Of a DNA stretch of 64,000 nucleotides, positions 2,789 through 63,360 are shown piece after piece. The notes under the pieces are model-generated. The model saw nothing but the letters and a program-made list of their open reading frames with translations, did not search any database and was not told the origin of the DNA. Every line of letters begins with the position of its first letter. Within the stretch, counting starts at the first letter, position 1. The position numbers were made by a program, and so were the translations under genes. This DNA is from Pyrinomonadaceae bacterium (GTDB lineage: Bacteria; Acidobacteriota; Blastocatellia; Pyrinomonadales; Pyrinomonadaceae): the NCBI GenBank assembly GCA_041749555.1, contig JBGTBC010000338.1, positions 5,057 through 69,056 on the forward strand, written 5' to 3'.

Positions 2789-3315
2789 TTAGAAGATCGG
2801 CCGCTTTAGCTCCATCTGCAGGCGCGCTTGGTCGATCTTTCCGTCGTTTTGCTTCAAATGATCGACAAAAATAAGCGCGGTCTGAATACGTTTGTCAATG
2901 TCTTTTACCTTGCCGACAAAGTAAAGGATCGAACGCTGCTTGCCTGGGGTTAGCGAATGAAACAGCTTGTCACCTTCGAGGTCCTGATTCAAAACTTCTC
3001 GCAGTTCTTCCGGCATAGGGAGCCCATATTTACTTTCATCCTTTTTGAGCACTACCGTGATGCTGTCTCCTGCTTCGATTCCGAGCCGTGTCCGGACGCC
3101 TTTATTGACCATCAGAAAAAATGAGCCGTCGTACGGCATTAACGCACACGGGAACGTTTCGACCCCATTCAGGGTACAGATGACTCGACGGCTGCCCTTG
3201 GCAAACTCAAAGCTGTCAGCGATCTCACGCGAGACGCCTACGAAGTGCCATCCGGATTCGGGTGAGAATTTATCGAGCAGGTATCGAACTTGATTTTGCG
3301 CGCAGCAGTTTTCAT
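2789..3315 (-). pseudogene. YdeI / DUF1905-family protein with an apparent 1-nt frameshift near the N-terminus
   Basis: The track ORF 2789-3139 (MPYDGSFFLMVNKG...) continues upstream in frame as ...LLDKFSPESGWHFVGVSREIADSFEFAKGSRRVICTLNGVETFPCAL, a DUF1905-like N-domain, with no ATG/GTG/TTG. An ATG at 3313-3315 opens MKTAARKIKFDT in the adjacent frame and meets this frame at GATACCTGCTC. Confidence 0.55.
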
Positions 3316-3341: not shown

Positions 3342-4517
3342 ATGGATACGTCCGTTCAACCCATACTGGATAAAGCACTCGATGGCGCGCGGTTGTCAGC
3401 CGAAGACTGCACCGCCTTGCTCGAATCACACGATTTCGTACGTATCGGCCTCGCAGCCGATGAGATCCGCCAACGAAGAAATCCGGGCGATGTTGTGACC
3501 TACATAATTGATCGCAATATCAATTATACCAACGTCTGCAACGTAGTTTGCACGTTCTGCGCATTCTATCGGCGACCCGGCAAACCGGACACGTACGTAC
3601 ATTCGATCGAGGAGATCTGTTCCCGCATTGACGAGACTATCGCTCTCGGCGGAACAGGCGTGCTGATGCAGGGCGGTCTGCATCCTGATTTTAATATCGA
3701 GTGGTATGAGGATTTGCTCTCGACGCTACACGCAAAGTATCCAAAATTTCAGCTCCACTGTTTTTCACCGCCAGAGATACACAATATTCACCTGATCAGC
3801 GGCCTCGATTACATGACCATAATGCAGCGGCTAAAGGATGCGGGTCTTAACTCTATGCCGGGCGGCGGCGGCGAGATCCTGGATGATGAGGTCCGTGCGA
3901 GAGTTTCGACCAAATGCGACACGCAAGAATGGCTCGACATAATGCGTGCCGTTCACAAGGTCGGTCTGATCTCGACCGCGACGATGATGTTTGGCATTGG
4001 AGACAAGATCGAGCACCGAGTCCGCCATCTCGAACGAATTCGGCAGGTGCAGGACGAAGCCCTTGCGAATAAAGCCGTCGATCCGAATTACGGCGAGTTC
4101 ACCGCCTTTATCCCGTGGACATTCCAACGCGAAAACACCGCCCTCGGCCGCAAGATCACCGAGGAACCGACAGGCATCGATTATTTAAAGATGCTTGCCG
4201 TTTCGCGTTTATTTTTAGATAACGTCCAGCACATCCAGGCATCATGGCTGACCCAAGGCCTCAAGCTCGGTCAGACAGCTCTTAGATTCGGCGCCGATGA
4301 CATGGGCTCCATCATGATCGAAGAAAACGTAGTCTCCGCCGCCGGAGCCGACAACCAGGCCAACGAAAGAGATCTCCGCTATCAGATCCGCGAAGCCGGT
4401 TTCGTTCCCCAACAAAGGGACATTCTTTATAACTACATTGATCGTCCTAACATCGGTGATGTAGATCAAAGCGACTCGATGAAGTTGAAACAGTTGACCG
4501 TCGCATTTGCGGATTAA
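3342..4517 (+). CDS. radical SAM menaquinone-biosynthesis enzyme, MqnC/MqnE family
   Basis: Contains DRNINYTNVCNVVCTFCAFYR (a CxxxCxxC cluster) and a GGTGVLMQGG motif; about 391 aa. I cannot separate MqnC from MqnE by eye. Start taken at the ATG at 3342. Confidence 0.8.
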   Translation: MDTSVQPILDKALDGARLSAEDCTALLESHDFVRIGLAADEIRQRRNPGDVVTYIIDRNINYTNVCNVVCTFCAFYRRPGKPDTYVHSIEEICSRIDETIALGGTGVLMQGGLHPDFNIEWYEDLLSTLHAKYPKFQLHCFSPPEIHNIHLISGLDYMTIMQRLKDAGLNSMPGGGGEILDDEVRARVSTKCDTQEWLDIMRAVHKVGLISTATMMFGIGDKIEHRVRHLERIRQVQDEALANKAVDPNYGEFTAFIPWTFQRENTALGRKITEEPTGIDYLKMLAVSRLFLDNVQHIQASWLTQGLKLGQTALRFGADDMGSIMIEENVVSAAGADNQANERDLRYQIREAGFVPQQRDILYNYIDRPNIGDVDQSDSMKLKQLTVAFAD

Positions 4518-13258: not shown

Positions 13259-13834
13259 TTATTCCGGGGCCATGCCGGTGAACTTCAAAGCTCCCGAATT
13301 TATGCAGTACCGCAGCCCGGTCGGCTTTGGCCCATCGTCAAAGACATGCCCGAGATGCGAACCGCACCGTGCACATTCGACCTCGACCCTCACCATGCCA
13401 TAGGTCCGGTCTTTCTTCTCGACAACATTCTTTGTCGAAACAGGTTCGTAAAAGCTTGGCCAGCCGGTGCCGGAATCAAACTTCGTCGTGGAACTGAATA
13501 CTTTTAAACCGCATGCCGCGCAGTGGTAGTCGCCCGGATCTTTGTTGTTGTCGTACTCGCCTGAGAACGCACGTTCCGTTCCATCTTCGCGGAGAATATG
13601 GAATTGTTCGGGCGTGAGCACAGCTCGCCATTCTTCCTCAGTTTTCTCGACCTTAATGCCGTCAAATTCAGCCTCGGCCGCCGTCAGGTTAATCGTGGCA
13701 GGGGTTGATGACGGCGAGACTGAGGCAGCAGAGGTCGGTCTTGGATTGGTCGTTGATACTTCAGAACGGCAGGCCCAACCGACGAAAGCTGAAACCATGA
13801 GAAGCAAGGTTGCGAATAAAGTCCTGTATCTCAT
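13259..13834 (-). CDS. msrB: exported peptide-methionine (R)-S-oxide reductase MsrB
   Basis: The MsrB core has CAACG...GTGWPSF...[16 protein letters not shown]...RYCINS. It is preceded by a hydrophobic signal/lipoprotein-like N-terminus ([13 protein letters not shown]) and a Ser/Pro/Thr linker. Confidence 0.85.
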
Positions 13835-54858: not shown

Positions 54859-54937
54859 TGCCCACCATGCATTACCTTAGCTTTTACCCGCGCCGATTAA
54901 CAATCCGTGAGGATTTTCGCTGTATAATTTGAACCTA

Positions 54938-55495
54938 ATGTTCCAACGGGCCGCAAAAAGTAATGGATCCGACCGGGTGCGGGAAATAAAAGACCGTGAA
55001 CGGTCGCGCGAACGAACGATGAACCGCGCTATACGGCTCCTTGCCGCAAAACCGCGTTCGGTCCGTGAGCTTCGAGACAGGCTCCTTGAAAAAATGTGGA
55101 CCGATGAGGCGATAGTCGATGCCGTGATCGAAAAGCTAACGGAATATAAATACCTCGATGACGAGCAGTTTGCCCGCGACGTTGCAGTTTCAAAACTCCG
55201 TCAGAGCCCGCAAGGCAAGCGGCGGTTGCAGATGACAATGTCCCGTAAGAAGCTGGATAAAGAAACGGTCGACGCAGCGATAGCAACGGCCTATAACGAG
55301 ATGCCGGAAGATGATCTTATCGATATTGCGATCCAAAAACGGCTGCGGACGAAAGGCAAACCGGAAACCCGCGAGGATGCTAAGAAATTTTATGACCATC
55401 TGCTGCGTCGCGGATTCGGGTATGACTTGATCCGAACAAAAATGAGCGGTCTCGCCACCGGAGCATATGACCCGAGTGAAGAAGATCAACTATAA
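54938..55495 (+). CDS. recX: recombination regulator RecX
   Basis: Contains A.RLLA..PRSV.ELR.RL and three helical repeats (YLDDEQFA...). The start is uncertain: TTG at 54929 or ATG at 54938 or 55019. Confidence 0.7.
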   Translation: MFQRAAKSNGSDRVREIKDRERSRERTMNRAIRLLAAKPRSVRELRDRLLEKMWTDEAIVDAVIEKLTEYKYLDDEQFARDVAVSKLRQSPQGKRRLQMTMSRKKLDKETVDAAIATAYNEMPEDDLIDIAIQKRLRTKGKPETREDAKKFYDHLLRRGFGYDLIRTKMSGLATGAYDPSEEDQL

Positions 55496-55514
55496 CGGGC
55501 GGGTTTTTCGTCCG

Positions 55515-55829
55515 ATGAAAACATCCGCCACCGGCGAGGCAGATCCCGACACTGTGTTCCGCTATTTCCAGGACGGTGATATCGTGTGGGCTGACTATAG
55601 CGGCGGAGCGGTGAAAGCAGGCCACCTGATCGCGACCGTCGATGCTGAAGGCAACCTCGACATGCGGTACCACCACTTCAACTCATCTGGCGAGCTAATG
55701 ACAGGCATATGCCGTTCCACGCCCGAGGTCTTGGCCGACGGCCGGTTGCTTATGCATGAAAAGTGGCAATGGACCTCCGGTGACATGTCGACAGGCGAAT
55801 CACAGCTCGAAGAGATCTTACCAGCATAG
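55515..55829 (+). CDS. small conserved hypothetical protein (lipocalin-like beta-barrel pattern)
   Basis: Contains TVFRYFQDGDIVWADYSGGAVKAGHLIATVDAEGNLDMRYHHFN...WQWTSGDMSTGESQLEE. I have seen this family annotated only as hypothetical. Start taken at MKTSATG. Confidence 0.55.
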   Translation: MKTSATGEADPDTVFRYFQDGDIVWADYSGGAVKAGHLIATVDAEGNLDMRYHHFNSSGELMTGICRSTPEVLADGRLLMHEKWQWTSGDMSTGESQLEEILPA

Positions 55830-55984: not shown

Positions 55985-56551
55985 ATGAAGTCTTTTTTTG
56001 GATTAGCAGTTTTGACACTTGGATTCGCACTCGGTGCGACAACGGCCTCGGCACAGATGATGGATAGCAGCAACCCGATGGTGGGCGGCGCTGCAATGTA
56101 TAAAACAAAGAATATCGTCGAGAACGCGGTAAATTCCGCTGACCATACAACACTCGTCGCGGCGGTAAAGGCCGCAGGCCTTGTCGAAACCCTGTCGAGC
56201 CCGGGACCATTCACCGTGTTTGCTCCGGTCAACAGTGCTTTCGCGGCATTGCCTGAGGGTACTGTTGAAACCTTACTGAAACCTGAGAACAAAGCAACAC
56301 TCACAAAGATCCTGACCTACCACGTCGTTGCCGGGAATATGGATTCAAAAGCTGTCGTTGCGGCAATTAAGAAGGGTAAAGGTAAAGCAATTCTTACCAC
56401 AGTAGCGGGCGGAAAACTTACTGCGACCCTAGAGGGCAAGAACGTCATTATCACGGACGAGAAAGGCGGCAGATCGACCGTGACTATCGCCGATGTAAAG
56501 CAGTCGAATGGCGTCATCCATGTGGTTGACTCTGTTCTGCTGCCCAACTAG
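55985..56551 (+). CDS. exported fasciclin (FAS1) domain protein
   Basis: Has a signal peptide MKSFFGLAVLTLGFALGATTASA, then LSSPGPFTVFAPVNSAF and ...ILTYHVV.G..., and a C-terminal NGVIHVVDSVLLP. Confidence 0.85.
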   Translation: MKSFFGLAVLTLGFALGATTASAQMMDSSNPMVGGAAMYKTKNIVENAVNSADHTTLVAAVKAAGLVETLSSPGPFTVFAPVNSAFAALPEGTVETLLKPENKATLTKILTYHVVAGNMDSKAVVAAIKKGKGKAILTTVAGGKLTATLEGKNVIITDEKGGRSTVTIADVKQSNGVIHVVDSVLLPN

Positions 56552-56564
56552 CATTCCTCCGGCG

Positions 56565-56693: not shown

Positions 56694-57266
56694 ATGATGG
56701 CCAGACCGAATAAGTTCATTATCACAATGCTCCTTCTAACCGTTGGGGCATTTTCTTTTTATTTGGGGGCGTCACCTGACTTCGCAGTCGCGTCTGCGTC
56801 CGTTTCTCCTGTACCGCGGCCCTCCCCGACTGGGATCGGGCTTGCAATGATCGATGCCGAGTTTGACGGCAAGAAGATCGAACGTACCGTGAGTGAATGG
56901 AGGAACCTCCTCACCCCGGACGAGTTTCAGATATTGCGCGAGGCTGGCACCGAACGGGCCTACTCAGGACCGCTCAATAAGAACAAAAAGAAGGGCTCAT
57001 ACCATTGCGCGGGCTGCGGCCTTGTTGTGTTTCGTTCCAGCGCCAAATACGACTCGGGAACCGGCTGGCCGAGCTTTTACCGCCCGGCATTTAAGAAGAA
57101 TCTCATTGAAAAGATCGACCGAAGCCTGCCGTCAGAAGAACGCGTCGAGATCGAATGTGCCCGCTGCGGGTCACATCTTGGACACGTCTTCGACGACGGC
57201 CCACGGCCGACCGGCCTCCGGTACTGCATCAATTCCCTCGCCCTGCGATTCGTCGAGAAGAAGTAG
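56694..57266 (+). CDS. msrB: exported peptide-methionine (R)-S-oxide reductase MsrB (second paralog)
   Basis: Has an N-terminal TM/signal segment plus a Pro/Ser linker, then CAGCG...GTGWPSF...[16 protein letters not shown]...RYCINS. Confidence 0.85.
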
Positions 57267-57343: not shown

Positions 57344-58177
57344 ATGAACGGAAACGAGATCAGATCGAAATTTCTCGAATACTTCGAACGCAATGGACAC
57401 AAGATCTTGTCTTCATCACCACTTCTCCCGGCGAACGATCCAACTCTGCTTTTTATCAATGCCGGGATGAACCAGTTCAAAGACGTCTTTCTCGGCAATG
57501 AAAAACGCGATTATAAACGGGCGGTCACCTCGCAGAAATGTATCCGGGCAGGTGGCAAGCACAATGATCTCGACGAGGTTGGAAAAACGGCCAGGCATCA
57601 CACATTCTTTGAAATGCTGGGAAATTTCTCATTCGGAGATTATTTCAAAAAAGAGGCGATCGAATATGCGTGGGATTTTCTGCTCAATGAGCTCAAGCTC
57701 GAGGAATCTCGTTTGTGGTTCACCGTGTTCGAGGGCGACGCAGAAGTCGGGCCGGACGATGAAGCTCGCAGCCTGTGGGAGAGCGTAGGTGCAAAACCCG
57801 AACGTGTTCTCGGATTTGGAAGAAAGGACAATTTCTGGCAGATGGGGGAAACAGGCCCCTGCGGACCGTGCTCGGAGATCCACTATTACATGGGCGAGGA
57901 CCCGGATGATCCAGCAAAAAACTCGGCCTTGTGGGTCAATGGCGAGGGTGATACAACGATGGAGATCTGGAATCTGGTTTTTATGCAGTACAACCGCACT
58001 GAGGATTCTCCTGGGGTATTTACCCTAACGCCGCTGCCAGCTCCGTCGGTCGACACCGGCTTGGGCCTTGAGCGGATCACGGCAGTCATGCAGGGCGTGT
58101 CAAACAACTATGACACCGACCTGATCCGCCCCATCGTCGATTTTGCGGCCGAATTGGCGGTCAAGCCGCGCATATGA
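57344..58177 (+). CDS. alanyl-tRNA synthetase catalytic core only (277 aa; truncated alaS-like gene)
   Basis: The sequence [19 protein letters not shown]...[16 protein letters not shown]...[34 protein letters not shown]...[11 protein letters not shown]...[10 protein letters not shown]... is collinear with AlaRS residues 1 to about 265. It then stops (…[10 protein letters not shown]). The track ORF start at 57155 overlaps msrB and is rejected. Confidence 0.8.
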
Positions 58178-58860
58178 TCATTACCGACGACCTGTTAAAT
58201 TATGCGGAGAGTTTTACGTCCGGCGAGAGCAAGGTGCTCGCGGAACTGCGCGCTCATTGTTACGAGCATTATACGGATTCGAGTATGCTCTCGGGATTCT
58301 TTCAGGGCCGCGTGCTTAGCATGTTCTCACATATGATCCGGCCTGCCGTCGTCCTTGAGATCGGCACTTATCTCGGTTACTCTGCACTCTGCCTTGCCGA
58401 GGGACTCGCTGACGATGGAAAGGTAATTACAATAGACATACAGGAAGAAACGAATCGAGTAGCACAATCGTACGTAGCGAAAACGGCATACTCATCAAAG
58501 ATCGAATTCCTTCTCGGCACCGCGACCGATCTGATCCCGACCCTTTCAGATACCTTTGACCTTGTTTTTATCGATGCGGACAAGCCAAATTATTCGAACT
58601 ATTATGACCTTGTCTTTAACCGCGTCCGCCAGGGAGGTTACATCATCGCCGATAACGTCCTATGGAGCGGCAAGGTACTAGCAGAGGTTAAGGATGAAGA
58701 CACCCATGCATTGCACGAATTCAATCAGAAGGTTATGGCCGACGACCGCGTGGAGAATGTCTTATTCCCGATCCGTGACGGCTTGATGGTGATACGCAAG
58801 AAATTGAGGTCATCTCGTTCAGACCCCGACAAAGCACCAGTATACGAACTGTCCATCTAA
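58174..58860 (+). CDS. class I SAM-dependent O-methyltransferase (caffeoyl-CoA OMT / YrrM-like)
   Basis: Contains [13 protein letters not shown], ...ITIDI and ...[14 protein letters not shown], with ...GG.I..DNVLW.G.V. Its ATG overlaps the TGA of the alaS-like ORF (ATGA at 58174-58177). Confidence 0.8.
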
Positions 58861-61917: not shown

Positions 61918-61951
61918 TTGTAATTGAAAAACTATATCTACTGAAGTCCCA

Positions 61952-62041
61952 GTTCAGAGTCCCTGCTTCAGCAGGCCGCGGATCGCAGTATGCGATCAGA
62001 CCTACCACATGGGATCGCCGCCTAAAGGCGGTACTCCAAAC
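61952..62041. repeat. 90-bp palindromic REP/BIME- or MITE-like element, copy 2 (35 bp upstream of the helicase start codon)
   Basis: The left arm is GTTCAGAGTCCCTGCTTCAGCAGGC. The reverse complement of the right arm is GTTTGGAGTACCGCCTTTAGGCGGC. The architecture matches 25902-25989. The interior contains the hairpin GATCGCA-gta-TGCGATC. Confidence 0.65.
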
Positions 62042-62420
62042 GAGTCTTCGGGATGTAATAAGAAGTTACTAACGCGGAGATTTCTTCAGTGTAACGGTAG
62101 CAAGGAAGGGTCTACGTTCGAGGGCTCACAACTAAGGAGCCGCTTCTAACAGTTATAAAGGAACCGTTTCTCGAACTATCTATTTCGATCCAACATAGGA
62201 CCGAGTTTACCGTCGACGAATGAGACACGGAATTGTCAAACTACTAAGACTACAGTAATTAGCAAAAGGATGCAAGTTATTTTCGGCCGCCCGGCTGTTT
62301 ACCGGGTATTACTCCGAAAAGACGAAGCAGAGCGGCGGTCAGCGTCCAACGTATACCATTCTACATTCTACAGACTGCGTTCGATCCCCGTCCGTCACCC
62401 TTCGAATTCGTCCCCAAACT

Positions 62421-62673
62421 CCTGTAACTGTCCCACGCCGGGACAGTAATATCGCTGTAACTGCCTTATAATGTGATAGTTACAGGTTTTCGTACTGTCC
62501 CACGCTTCGGCGTGCGGGTGTAATACAGCGGTGGTCAGTGGTCGGAGCCGCTTTTGGATGATGGAGTGATTCTTCCTTCGGGATCGTCACTCCTCGTTCG
62601 TATCCCCACTCGCCACTCCGAACTCGCCACTCCGCACTCACTAGACCCCCTGCTTTTGTACCACGGCTGGTAC
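62421..62673 (+). ncRNA. candidate structured RNA of unknown class (hairpin cluster with two cUUCGg tetraloops)
   Basis: The five hairpins H1-H5 and the two direct repeats that allow alternative pairing are described in the finding at 62421-62673. Strand is inferred only from the two UUCG loops. No promoter or terminator is defined. Confidence 0.35.
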
Positions 62674-62944
62674 AGCAATTATGGCGTAACCCCTGCTATC
62701 ACAGCAAGTTACATGCTTGTACCATGTACCACGCATTTTTCAGTTTTCTGTATTACGATGTATGACAGCAATCCAAAAGCTAAGGTTTCTACCATCCACA
62801 GCAACGAAAACTCATCAACCATCAACGAACAAACCCCTGCGATCCACGATCAACGATCAATGAGCAAATTTTCAAACATCCGCACGGCCTCGAAAGACCG
62901 GGCACCGCAACAGGCTAACGTACTTTTTAGGCTTTCGGGTAGTC

Positions 62945-63001
62945 CATTTGGCGTACTTTGTAGCATTTGGCGTGATTTGCATCATTTGGCGTGGATAGGA
63001 T
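62945..63001 (+). repeat. three iteron-like direct repeats, CATTTGGCGT(A/G), at exact 19-bp spacing
   Basis: The repeats start at 62945, 62964 and 62983. The flanking 8-9 nt of each unit are variable. Confidence 0.6.
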
Positions 63002-63256
63002 CTCGGGGTGCCCTTACTGCGCGCGGGCTTCTAAATGCAGCATTTAACTTGAAATTGCACATTTAGTGGAAAAAGACGCAAAAGGGAGACTTCGTTTTTT
63101 CCGCGGTCGGTCCTGAGGGGACATCGGTCCATACCCACGAGGACACAAATCATCACGAAGTTTCCCACATCCAGGATTTTACGGAAGAAAGCGGCCATTT
63201 CATCTTCTATAACAAACAAATATAAATTTTGCTGATTGCAGAAACGTGGATCTCGA

Positions 63257-63285
63257 TTGACGCACGTATGAAGTAGGAGTAGAAT
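63257..63285 (+). promoter_or_regulatory. candidate sigma-70 promoter of the downstream adhesin-like gene
   Basis: TTGACG (63257-63262), a 17-nt spacer, then TAGAAT (63280-63285), 75 nt upstream of the ATG at 63361. A CCAGGAG Shine-Dalgarno sequence lies at 63347-63353. Confidence 0.5.
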
Positions 63286-63360
63286 CTGAACGATTTTCAT
63301 CGTAATTTCTTAACCTTAAAATAGATCATTTATCCTTCCCGGTGTTCCAGGAGTCAAAGT

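What the first reader, a model, noticed from the sequence alone, without database searches (positions are those of the whole stretch)
57344..58860. Stand-alone AlaRS catalytic core whose stop overlaps an O-methyltransferase start
The ORF 57344-58177 encodes an undecayed match to the first ~265 residues of bacterial alanyl-tRNA synthetase. All three class II motifs are present: [48 protein letters not shown] and [10 protein letters not shown]. It then ends (…[12 protein letters not shown]) where the tRNA-recognition, editing and C-Ala domains (about 600 aa) should follow. Its TGA overlaps the ATG of a caffeoyl-CoA-OMT-like methyltransferase (ATGA at 58174-58177), which is the usual signature of translational coupling. 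I can see three readings. (a) It is a recent truncation or rearrangement of alaS, so an intact copy must exist elsewhere. (b) It is an assembly chimera. (c) It is a stand-alone Ala-activating paralog working with the methyltransferase, by analogy with truncated aaRS paralogs such as PoxA/GenX, YadB/GluQRS and HisZ. Reading (c) would be new for AlaRS as far as I know.
Basis: partly seen in the sequence, partly recalled or inferred. Interest (0 to 1): 0.7.

Follow-up and report, generated by a model that had tools for sequence, protein, structure and literature searches.

The report
Split bacterial alanyl-tRNA synthetase, catalytic half
The 277-residue "truncated AlaRS" is most likely the catalytic subunit of an alanyl-tRNA synthetase that one group of soil Acidobacteria (Pyrinomonadaceae) encodes as two separate genes; its overlap with the methyltransferase gene comes from a recent local deletion and does not indicate a partnership.

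Summary
ORF 57344-58177 encodes an intact AlaRS class II catalytic core (Pfam PF01411 positions 1-258 of 552), and its TGA overlaps the ATG of a family-3 O-methyltransferase.

It is neither a chimera nor decay. An independent assembly carries the same junction. More than 120 homologue clusters (81-96% identity) all stop at the same point. dN/dS is 0.04.

It is also not a lone paralogue. [quoted passage not shown]
- One 714-kb contig carries both halves about 221 kb apart.
- One complete chromosome has them adjacent, separated by an IS200/RAYT transposase.
- Other Pyrinomonadaceae and other Blastocatellia have the uninterrupted ~885-910-aa gene.
- Trees place the split forms in one clade, so the split probably happened once.

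The methyltransferase link is secondary. The closest relative (96% identity) has a response-regulator gene between the two, and other relatives have one or two genes there. The window lost that gene and inherited its ATGA overlap.

Best reading: this is the alpha subunit of a two-piece bacterial AlaRS, cut near E. coli residue 272. The known Nanoarchaeota split lies near residue 368. Not tested: physical assembly of the halves, and absence of any full-length alaS in these genomes.

The parts
57344..58177 (+). alaS-N: gene for the 277-aa catalytic (alpha) half of a split alanyl-tRNA synthetase. It holds class II motifs 1-3 plus one following helix.
   Evidence: Pfam PF01411 positions 1-258/552, E 4.6e-112. 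55% identity to E. coli AlaRS 7-270. Best solved-structure matches are AlaRS N-terminal fragments, E 1e-92 to 1e-99. More than 120 homologue clusters of the same length. dN/dS 0.040 against the L089 orthologue.
58141..58177 (+). Conserved end point of the alpha half. This is the linker where uninterrupted relatives continue ...GRKY(D/E)....EGFAMRVIADHAR. The last codons (KPRI*) are specific to this lineage.
   Evidence: Family alignment: conservation stops after F(A/T)A.LA, and the tails vary in sequence and length. Junction in the full-length Pyrinomonadaceae genes of L008 and L011. Comparison with L089.
58174..58177 (+). ATGA stop/start overlap with the methyltransferase gene. It is a secondary feature left by deletion of a response-regulator gene.
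   Evidence: In L089 (96%-identical orthologue) the order is alaS-N, a 208-aa response regulator, then the OMT. The regulator ends ...GTAGATATATGA, overlapping the OMT start. The window reads ...CGCATATGATC.
58174..58860 (+). Cation-dependent catechol/caffeoyl-CoA-type O-methyltransferase (family 3). It is a syntenic neighbour and not a demonstrated partner.
   Evidence: PF01596 E 2.4e-50. Best PDB sequence matches are bacterial catechol-type OMTs (5lhm 8e-36). tRNA ho5U methyltransferase TrmR/YrrM matches only at about 1e-17. It lies one or two genes away from alaS-N in L001, L002 and L089.
56694..57266 (+). msrB (SelR domain). It is the conserved upstream neighbour of alaS-N, 77 nt away, and may be co-transcribed with it.
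   Evidence: PF01641 E 1e-44. The Fasciclin-SelR-AlaRS_N order is conserved in L001, L002, L003 and L088. The only promoter-like site upstream is at 56526-56554, and promoter-like sites in the region are no more frequent than in shuffles.
54929..55495 (+). recX, a marker of the ancestral recX-alaS neighbourhood, which the N half has kept.
   Evidence: RecX_HTH1/2/3 domains. recX lies directly upstream of the uninterrupted alaS in Pyrinomonadaceae locus L008 (tblastn) and in E. coli.

Best explanation
The ORF encodes the alpha (catalytic) subunit of a two-gene, split alanyl-tRNA synthetase.

Shown:
- In a clade of Pyrinomonadaceae (Acidobacteriota, Blastocatellia) the ancestral ~900-aa alaS is cut in the linker after the helix that follows motif 3, near E. 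coli residue 272.
- The N half (~275 aa) carries motifs 1-3.
- A separate gene encodes the C half (~629 aa, starting MSxYE..QFACRVIADHAR). It carries the tRNA-recognition domain, including the equivalents of E. coli Asn303 and Asp400 that read G3:U70. It also carries the editing domain (HTATH and CGGTH motifs) and C-Ala.
- Together the two products cover the full-length protein with nothing lost.
- Both are widespread and under purifying selection.
- The two genes can be adjacent (with a RAYT/REP element between them) or about 221 kb apart on one contig.

Inferred:
- The two polypeptides assemble non-covalently. The alpha half makes Ala-AMP. The beta half positions the tRNA-Ala acceptor stem, proofreads and dimerises. 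This parallels Nanoarchaeum AlaRS alpha/beta and bacterial GlyRS alpha2beta2.
- The window's own genome encodes the beta half outside these 64 kb.
- After the split, a rearrangement with a breakpoint in the spacer separated the halves. The N half kept the recX side. The C half kept an aldehyde-dehydrogenase side.
- The overlap with the O-methyltransferase comes from a lineage-specific deletion and has no bearing on function.
For: - Conserved truncation: 120 of the 120 best homologues are 271-305 aa at 81-96% identity. The alignment shows invariant catalytic motifs and a common end point.
- Complementary half: a genome scan found Pyrinomonadaceae C-terminal homologues. In L009 and L012 the C half is a stand-alone ORF with no N domain within 4 kb upstream. 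A protein search with it returned 120 of 120 hits of 623-737 aa (mode 629). Of these, 105 have the FACRVIADH motif at offset 12, and none has a catalytic domain.
- Same replicon: N half P0045 and C half P0477 lie on ENA contig ERZ27268800:k141_70272, at about 700.6-701.5 kb and 477.9-479.8 kb, on the same strand. Both proteins also list the same longest contig, 1,399,784 bp.
- Intermediate form: the complete chromosome OZ244558.1 (L010) has a 281-aa N half, then a Y1_Tnp gene, then a 627-aa C half. Pfam coverage is 1-259 and 265-550.
- Unsplit relatives: L008 and L011 (Pyrinomonadaceae) and more than 100 other Blastocatellia proteins are 884-934 aa.
- Single origin: in NJ trees of both the N part and the C part, L010 plus the dispersed halves form one clade.
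- Selection: omega is 0.04-0.055 for the N half and 0.09-0.14 for the C half.
- tRNA-reading residues in the C half: GNEGRNY and LYDTFG are seen in the L009 translation; their alignment to E. coli residues 303 and 400 was done by eye.
Against: - The window itself holds no C half, and its source genome could not be searched.
- No tool here could scan a whole Pyrinomonadaceae genome, so a further full-length alaS in the same cells is not excluded.
- Physical association and activity of the two halves are untested.
- E. coli fragments shorter than 442 residues do not charge tRNA (cited in PMC11392972), so activity depends entirely on assembly in trans.
- The NJ trees carry no support values. In the N tree the full-length Pyrinomonadaceae genes group with the other Blastocatellia and not next to the split clade.
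- The AF2 model of the N half was only moderate (mean pLDDT 66.9).
Confidence: 0.8

Rival explanations
1. Reader's reading (c). The protein is a free-standing alanine-activating paralogue working with the downstream O-methyltransferase, like PoxA/GenX, YadB or HisZ, alongside a normal AlaRS.
For: The protein is intact, conserved and free-standing. An OMT of the same family lies within 0-2 genes downstream in all five relatives examined.
Against: Direct adjacency and overlap occur only in the window lineage. They stem from deletion of a response-regulator gene. The sequence shows no divergence from housekeeping AlaRS cores: 72-78% identity to the N-termini of full-length Blastocatellia enzymes and omega 0.04. 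The exactly complementary C half exists as a separate gene in the same genomes. The OMT is a generic catechol-type enzyme.
Confidence: 0.05
2. The two halves are independent leftovers or have other roles. For example, the C half could be an AlaX-like trans-editing or tRNA-binding factor and the N half an adenylate-forming enzyme, while a third, unrecognised full-length AlaRS (perhaps horizontally acquired) does the charging.
For: Free-standing AlaRS editing domains (AlaX) are known (established knowledge). No whole genome could be searched here, so a third gene is not excluded. The genome scan stopped at 600 candidate stretches.
Against: Each Pyrinomonadaceae assembly in the scan gave only one AlaRS locus. 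Both halves keep every part needed for charging and nothing more, and they cover the full-length protein exactly. Strong purifying selection on a catalytic core with no tRNA-binding part is hard to explain if a complete enzyme is present. In the adjacent form in L010 the halves sit as one interrupted gene.
Confidence: 0.08
3. Reader's reading (a). It is a recently truncated or decaying alaS fragment, that is, a pseudogene.
For: It lies near recX, the usual alaS neighbourhood.
Against: There are no frameshifts or internal stops. Hundreds of orthologues have the same end point. Omega is 0.04 at dS 0.56.
Confidence: 0.02
4. Reader's reading (b). The alaS/OMT junction is an assembly chimera.
For: Nothing beyond the abrupt change of gene at the junction.
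Against: The identical protein and junction appear in an independently assembled contig from run SRR28170464. The same gene order, with an intervening regulator, is found in GCA_041745615.1 and SRR28170463.
Confidence: 0.01

Closest known systems
Split AlaRS (AlaRS-alpha / AlaRS-beta) of Nanoarchaeum equitans and other Nanoarchaeota
   Same: AlaRS is encoded by two separate genes far apart on the chromosome. The N-terminal piece is catalytic. Full G3:U70-specific charging needs both subunits (PMC11392972).
   Different: That enzyme is archaeal-type and sits in a reduced symbiont genome. Its cut corresponds to about E. coli residue 368, so alpha still holds the Asn that reads U70. Here the enzyme is bacterial-type, in free-living soil and sludge Acidobacteria with 4-7-Mb genomes. 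The cut is near residue 272, so the G3:U70-reading residues appear to lie in the beta half. It has an independent origin inside Blastocatellia.
Bacterial heterotetrameric GlyRS (alpha2beta2; glyQ/glyS)
   Same: It has a small catalytic-only class II alpha subunit plus a large tRNA-binding beta subunit (PMC8464048, abstract seen). bacGlyRS and AlaRS are proposed to share ancestry (bioRxiv 10.1101/2023.05.29.542759). It is the nearest model for how the enzyme here might work.
   Different: It is a different amino acid and family, and the beta domains are unrelated to the AlaRS editing and C-Ala domains. glyQ and glyS are normally adjacent and ancient. The split here is a recent, lineage-restricted fission. 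No homology test against GlyQ was run.
Split LeuRS (alpha/beta) of Aquifex aeolicus
   Same: It is a bacterial aaRS naturally encoded as two genes whose products assemble into an active enzyme. This rests on my own knowledge and was not checked here.
   Different: It is a class I enzyme, and the split lies inside the catalytic domain insertion.
Mini-AlaRS of Tupanvirus (PMC10036535)
   Same: It is a natural AlaRS that departs from the otherwise invariant four-domain prototype.
   Different: [quoted passage not shown] Here all four modules are kept but spread over two polypeptides.
   Same: Each is a free-standing catalytic-core-sized class I or II protein.
   Different: Those coexist with the full enzyme, have diverged, and have new acceptors and conserved partner genes (established knowledge). 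Here the core is not diverged, the partner-gene link fails, and the rest of the enzyme is present as a second gene.

Membership tests
Split (two-gene) alanyl-tRNA synthetase, alpha subunit | The N-terminal piece carries the complete class II catalytic core of AlaRS (motifs 1-3 and alanine/ATP-binding residues). | tested here: met
   PF01411 positions 1-258. 55% identity to E. coli residues 7-270. Motif residues are invariant in 17 sequences including E. coli.
Split (two-gene) alanyl-tRNA synthetase, alpha subunit | [quoted passage not shown] | tested here: met
   Met for relatives: the same 714-kb contig carries P0045 and P0477, and the halves are adjacent in L010. For the window's own genome this is inferred only, because the C half is not within the 64 kb.
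Split (two-gene) alanyl-tRNA synthetase, alpha subunit | The two pieces cover the full-length enzyme without loss or overlap. | tested here: met
   Pfam positions 1-259 plus 265-550, tRNA_SAD and DHHA1. Junction compared with the unsplit L008 and L011 genes.
Split (two-gene) alanyl-tRNA synthetase, alpha subunit | No uninterrupted alaS is present in the same genome. | not testable with these tools
   No whole-genome access. All 120 best relatives of the C half lack a catalytic domain, and named full-length genes come from other lineages. Neither point proves absence.
Split (two-gene) alanyl-tRNA synthetase, alpha subunit | The subunits associate, and both are needed for tRNA-Ala charging. | not testable with these tools
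   This needs biochemistry or multimer structure prediction. Only a single-chain AF2 run was possible.
Nanoarchaeota-type split AlaRS | Archaeal-type AlaRS split at about E. coli residue 368. | tested here: not met
   The best models are bacterial: TIGR00344 at 358.7 bits against archaeal TIGR03683 at 79.6 bits. The end point aligns to E. coli residues ~270-275, against 368 in PMC11392972.
Stand-alone aaRS-like paralogue (PoxA/HisZ/YadB type) | A conserved genomic link to a partner that defines the new function. | tested here: not met
   OMT adjacency is limited to the window lineage. One or two genes intervene in L001, L002 and L089, and the overlap arose by deletion.
Stand-alone aaRS-like paralogue (PoxA/HisZ/YadB type) | Coexists with, and has diverged from, the canonical full-length enzyme of the same organism. 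| tested here: inconclusive
   Coexistence cannot be tested without genomes. There is no unusual divergence: the short clade has branch lengths like the full-length clade, and omega is 0.04.
Pseudogene / gene remnant | Relaxed selection, disruptions and erratic end points among orthologues. | tested here: not met

The most novel reading that the evidence does not exclude
This would be the first natural heteromeric AlaRS found in Bacteria. The cut falls at the catalytic / tRNA-recognition boundary, so the enzyme would reproduce the alpha(catalytic)/beta(tRNA-binding) layout of bacterial GlyRS. The free alpha subunit might also have an activity of its own, such as G3:U70-independent charging (reported for N. 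equitans alpha) or donating Ala-AMP to another acceptor.
Probability: 0.12. Interest if true: 0.85.

Novelty: new variant of a known kind. Interest (0 to 1): 0.62.

Why it matters
AlaRS is usually described as keeping one invariant four-domain chain throughout biology. The published natural exceptions found in the papers read here are the Nanoarchaeota split and the viral mini-AlaRS.

A widespread split in free-living bacteria, at a different site, has three uses.
- It is a natural test of AlaRS modularity. Can a bare 275-residue class II core be supplied in trans with the module that reads G3:U70?
- It gives a living analogue for the proposed AlaRS/GlyRS alpha-beta relationship.
- The set of unsplit, adjacent-split and dispersed-split genomes documents how an essential gene undergoes fission, possibly with help from a mobile element.

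There is also a practical consequence for annotation. Databases currently label the N half 'hypothetical protein' or 'alanine--tRNA ligase-related protein' and the C half 'alanine--tRNA ligase'. If alaS is used as a single-copy marker in completeness or phylogenomic pipelines (my understanding; not checked here), it would be miscounted in this family.

Tried and rejected
- I looked for the AlaRS C-terminal part inside the window, using Pfam on all large ORFs and six-frame tblastn. It is absent.
- The 50%-representative search gave no short-family representative. It did lead to P0121/L005, a full-length Blastocatellia alaS broken by long-read frameshifts. That one is an artefactual 'split', not a real one.
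- A protein search with the L005 C-terminus returned only full-length enzymes of another Blastocatellia clade. Three ~600-aa hits looked like C halves; the two looked up were cut by contig ends and the third was not examined.
- Matching contig lengths between the N-half and full-length lists found nothing.
- I tested whether the OMT is the tRNA ho5U methyltransferase TrmR, which lies near alaS in Bacillus (from memory). I rejected this: catechol-type OMTs match far better.
- A split intein or protein trans-splicing is unlikely, because only 4-12 variable residues follow the last conserved helix.
- No Rfam family, tRNA gene or convincing promoter/terminator was found around the gene.
- The REP sequence that flanks the transposase in L010 is absent from the window.
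- The AF2 model of the N half had too low a confidence (pLDDT 66.9) to justify a fold search.
- Five literature searches found no report of a bacterial split AlaRS. The library is limited to open-access papers and preprints.

Full report
**1. The observation**

ORF 57344-58177 (+) encodes 277 residues.
- It matches the first 258 of 552 positions of Pfam tRNA-synt_2c (E 4.6e-112).
- It matches positions 1-247 of 847 of the bacterial alaS equivalog TIGR00344. The score, 358.7 bits, is below the 457-bit cut-off only because two thirds of the model are missing.
- It is 55% identical to E. coli AlaRS residues 7-270.
- Its best solved relatives are AlaRS N-terminal fragments (E 1e-92 to 1e-99).

The TGA of ATGA at 58174-58177 is its stop, and the ATG starts a 228-aa Methyltransf_3 protein. 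No AlaRS C-terminal sequence exists elsewhere in the window.

**2. It is not a chimera and not decay**

The identical protein, with the same msrB-alaS_N-OMT order and overlap, occurs on an independently assembled contig from run SRR28170464.

A search of 5.8 billion proteins returned 120 best hits at 81-96% identity. All are 271-305 aa long. Where named, they come from Pyrinomonadaceae or from MAGs labelled 'Chloracidobacterium sp.'. Their alignment shows invariant catalytic motifs. Conservation stops at the same place, after F(A/T)A.LA, followed by 4-12 variable residues.

Against the 96%-identical orthologue in GCA_041745615.1, dN is 0.022 and dS is 0.559, giving omega 0.040. More distant pairs give 0.04-0.055.

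**3. The methyltransferase link**

The gene order in relatives is:
- GCA_016711345.1 (L001): Fasciclin, SelR, AlaRS_N, response regulator, OMT, Pirin.
- L002 and L003: a TPR protein and the regulator lie between AlaRS_N and the OMT.
- GCA_041745615.1 (L089), the closest relative: AlaRS_N, a 208-aa response regulator, then the OMT. The regulator's stop overlaps the OMT start (...GATATATGA).

The window reads ...GCGGTCAAGCCGCGCATATGATC. About 630 bp holding the regulator gene is missing, and alaS-N now ends on the regulator's former ATA-TGA. The apparent translational coupling is thus a recent deletion scar.

The OMT itself matches cation-dependent catechol/caffeoyl-CoA OMTs best (5lhm, 8e-36). 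It matches the tRNA methyltransferase TrmR only weakly (about 1e-17).

**4. Where the rest of AlaRS is**

The nearest non-short relative (P0121, 75% identity) lies on contig L005. There alaS is full length but broken by long-read frameshifts.

I rebuilt its C-terminal 602 residues and used them as a query. This found more than 100 full-length (884-934 aa) AlaRS from 'Blastocatellia bacterium' MAGs. Their N-termini are 72-78% identical to the window protein.

An alignment of these C-termini was used to scan one genome per GTDB species. Among the best loci were several from Pyrinomonadaceae, at only about 50% identity. They fall into three states.
- **Uninterrupted.** L008 and L011 carry a single ~908-aa alaS. 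Its junction reads ...FTA.L.GRKY(D/E)....EGFAMRVIADHAR. In L008, recX lies directly upstream.
- **Split but adjacent.** L010 is the complete 4.1-Mb chromosome OZ244558.1. It has a 281-aa N half ending ...FTAELARKN*, then a 150-aa IS200-like Y1 transposase flanked by REP-like repeats, then a 627-aa C half starting MSVYETFDEQKQFACRVIADHAR. Pfam coverage is 1-259 for the N half. For the C half it is 265-550 plus tRNA_SAD and DHHA1.
- **Split and dispersed.** L009 and L012 carry a stand-alone C half starting MSVY(E/D).., with unrelated genes upstream and no N domain within 4 kb.

**5. The C half is a family as large as the N half**

Searching with the L009 C half gave 120 of 120 hits of 623-737 aa. 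The commonest length is 629 aa (68 hits). In 105 hits the FACRVIADH motif sits at offset 12. None has a catalytic domain. Named hits are from Pyrinomonadaceae.

The C-half locus is also stable: AMIN-like protein (minus strand), C half, then a Ser/Thr kinase with Tricorn_N domains, in L009, L087 and L091.

N half P0045 and C half P0477 lie on the same ENA contig (ERZ27268800:k141_70272, 714,213 bp). They sit at about 700.6-701.5 kb and 477.9-479.8 kb, on the same strand, about 221 kb apart. Both proteins also list the same longest contig, 1,399,784 bp.

**6. Evolution**

In NJ trees of the N domain and of the C part, L010's halves are sister to the dispersed N-half and C-half families. The split forms make one clade in both trees, which suggests a single fission.

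The N half keeps the recX side. The C half keeps an aldehyde dehydrogenase downstream in L010, L012 and L087. This fits a later rearrangement with a breakpoint in the spacer between the halves. That last step is an inference. It is also unknown whether the RAYT/REP element caused the fission or settled in the spacer afterwards.

**7. Mechanism**

Shown:
- The N half carries the complete AlaRS class II catalytic core (motifs 1-3), which in canonical AlaRS forms Ala-AMP.
- The C half holds GNEGRNY and LYDTFG, which I aligned by eye to the E. coli segments containing Asn303 and Asp400. Those residues read U70 and G3 (PMC11392972).
- The C half also holds the HTATH and CGGTH editing motifs and a DHHA1/C-Ala domain.

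Inferred: the halves associate non-covalently into an alpha/beta (probably alpha2beta2) AlaRS. The predicted C-terminal helix of alpha (residues 262-273) would be the first helix of the tRNA-recognition domain. It may dock into beta.

**8. Comparison with known systems**

The N. equitans AlaRS is split near E. coli residue 368 and is of archaeal type. The split here is bacterial-type, lies near residue 272, and arose inside Blastocatellia. It is therefore an independent, new variant of a known phenomenon.

In architecture it resembles bacterial GlyRS alpha2beta2 (PMC8464048). Five literature searches found no report of a bacterial split AlaRS.

**9. What remains open**
- Whether the window's own genome encodes the C half. 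This is expected but not seen.
- Whether any split-bearing genome also holds an intact alaS.
- Whether the halves bind each other and charge tRNA-Ala.

Noticed in passing
L010 3090-3962 (OZ244558.1, between the two alaS halves): The spacer holds an IS200-like Y1 transposase (PF01797, E 1e-26). It is flanked by two direct copies (3155-3178 and 3766-3789) and one inverted copy (about 3885-3940) of a REP-like palindromic sequence. This looks like a RAYT/REP unit sitting at the fission point of an essential gene.
   Followed up: partly
window 58141-58177 versus L089 5790-6460: Compared with its 96%-identical relative, the window has lost a ~630-bp LuxR-type response-regulator gene. This changed the last residues of alaS-N from ...AVER* to ...AVKPRI* and created the ATGA overlap with the OMT.
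   Followed up: yes
P0115 / P0393 (GenBank QYO68394.1, WP_263975459.1): A 6.99-Mb record labelled Leptolyngbya sp. 7M (a cyanobacterium in NCBI taxonomy) carries a Pyrinomonadaceae-type alaS-N, 82% identical to the window protein. The record may be a mislabelled or contaminant Acidobacteriota genome.
   Followed up: no
database names: Annotation is inconsistent. N halves are called 'hypothetical protein' or 'alanine--tRNA ligase-related protein'. C halves, which lack the catalytic domain, are often called 'alanine--tRNA ligase'.
   Followed up: partly
L005 9800-12600 (ERZ25039555 contig_73840): This Blastocatellia alaS appears as three ORFs only because of frameshifts. Neighbouring adh_short and Aldedh genes are also fragmented, which is typical of long-read errors. 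It mimics a split gene but is an artefact, and it gave rise to the 304-aa representative P0121.
   Followed up: yes
The two parts of AlaRS diverge very unevenly between Pyrinomonadaceae and other Blastocatellia. The catalytic domain is 72-78% identical. The C-terminal 600 residues are only ~49-51% identical, barely more than to Gammaproteobacteria (42-47%). The unsplit Pyrinomonadaceae genes share this, so faster evolution of the C part predates the fission.
   Followed up: partly
window 13277-13693 (-): A second msrB (SelR) paralogue, 66% identical to the one directly upstream of alaS-N (tblastn).
   Followed up: no
window 55467-55829 (+): A 120-aa ORF overlapping the 3' end of recX by 29 nt. 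It matches no Pfam or NCBIfam family. Gene calls list no corresponding gene in L001 or L002.
   Followed up: no
window 61918-63320: About 1.4 kb downstream of the DEAD-box helicase gene has no ORF longer than 170 aa and holds two short tandem repeats (62608-62639 and 62945-62993). An ORF starting near 63324 runs off the window end. No Rfam match.
   Followed up: no
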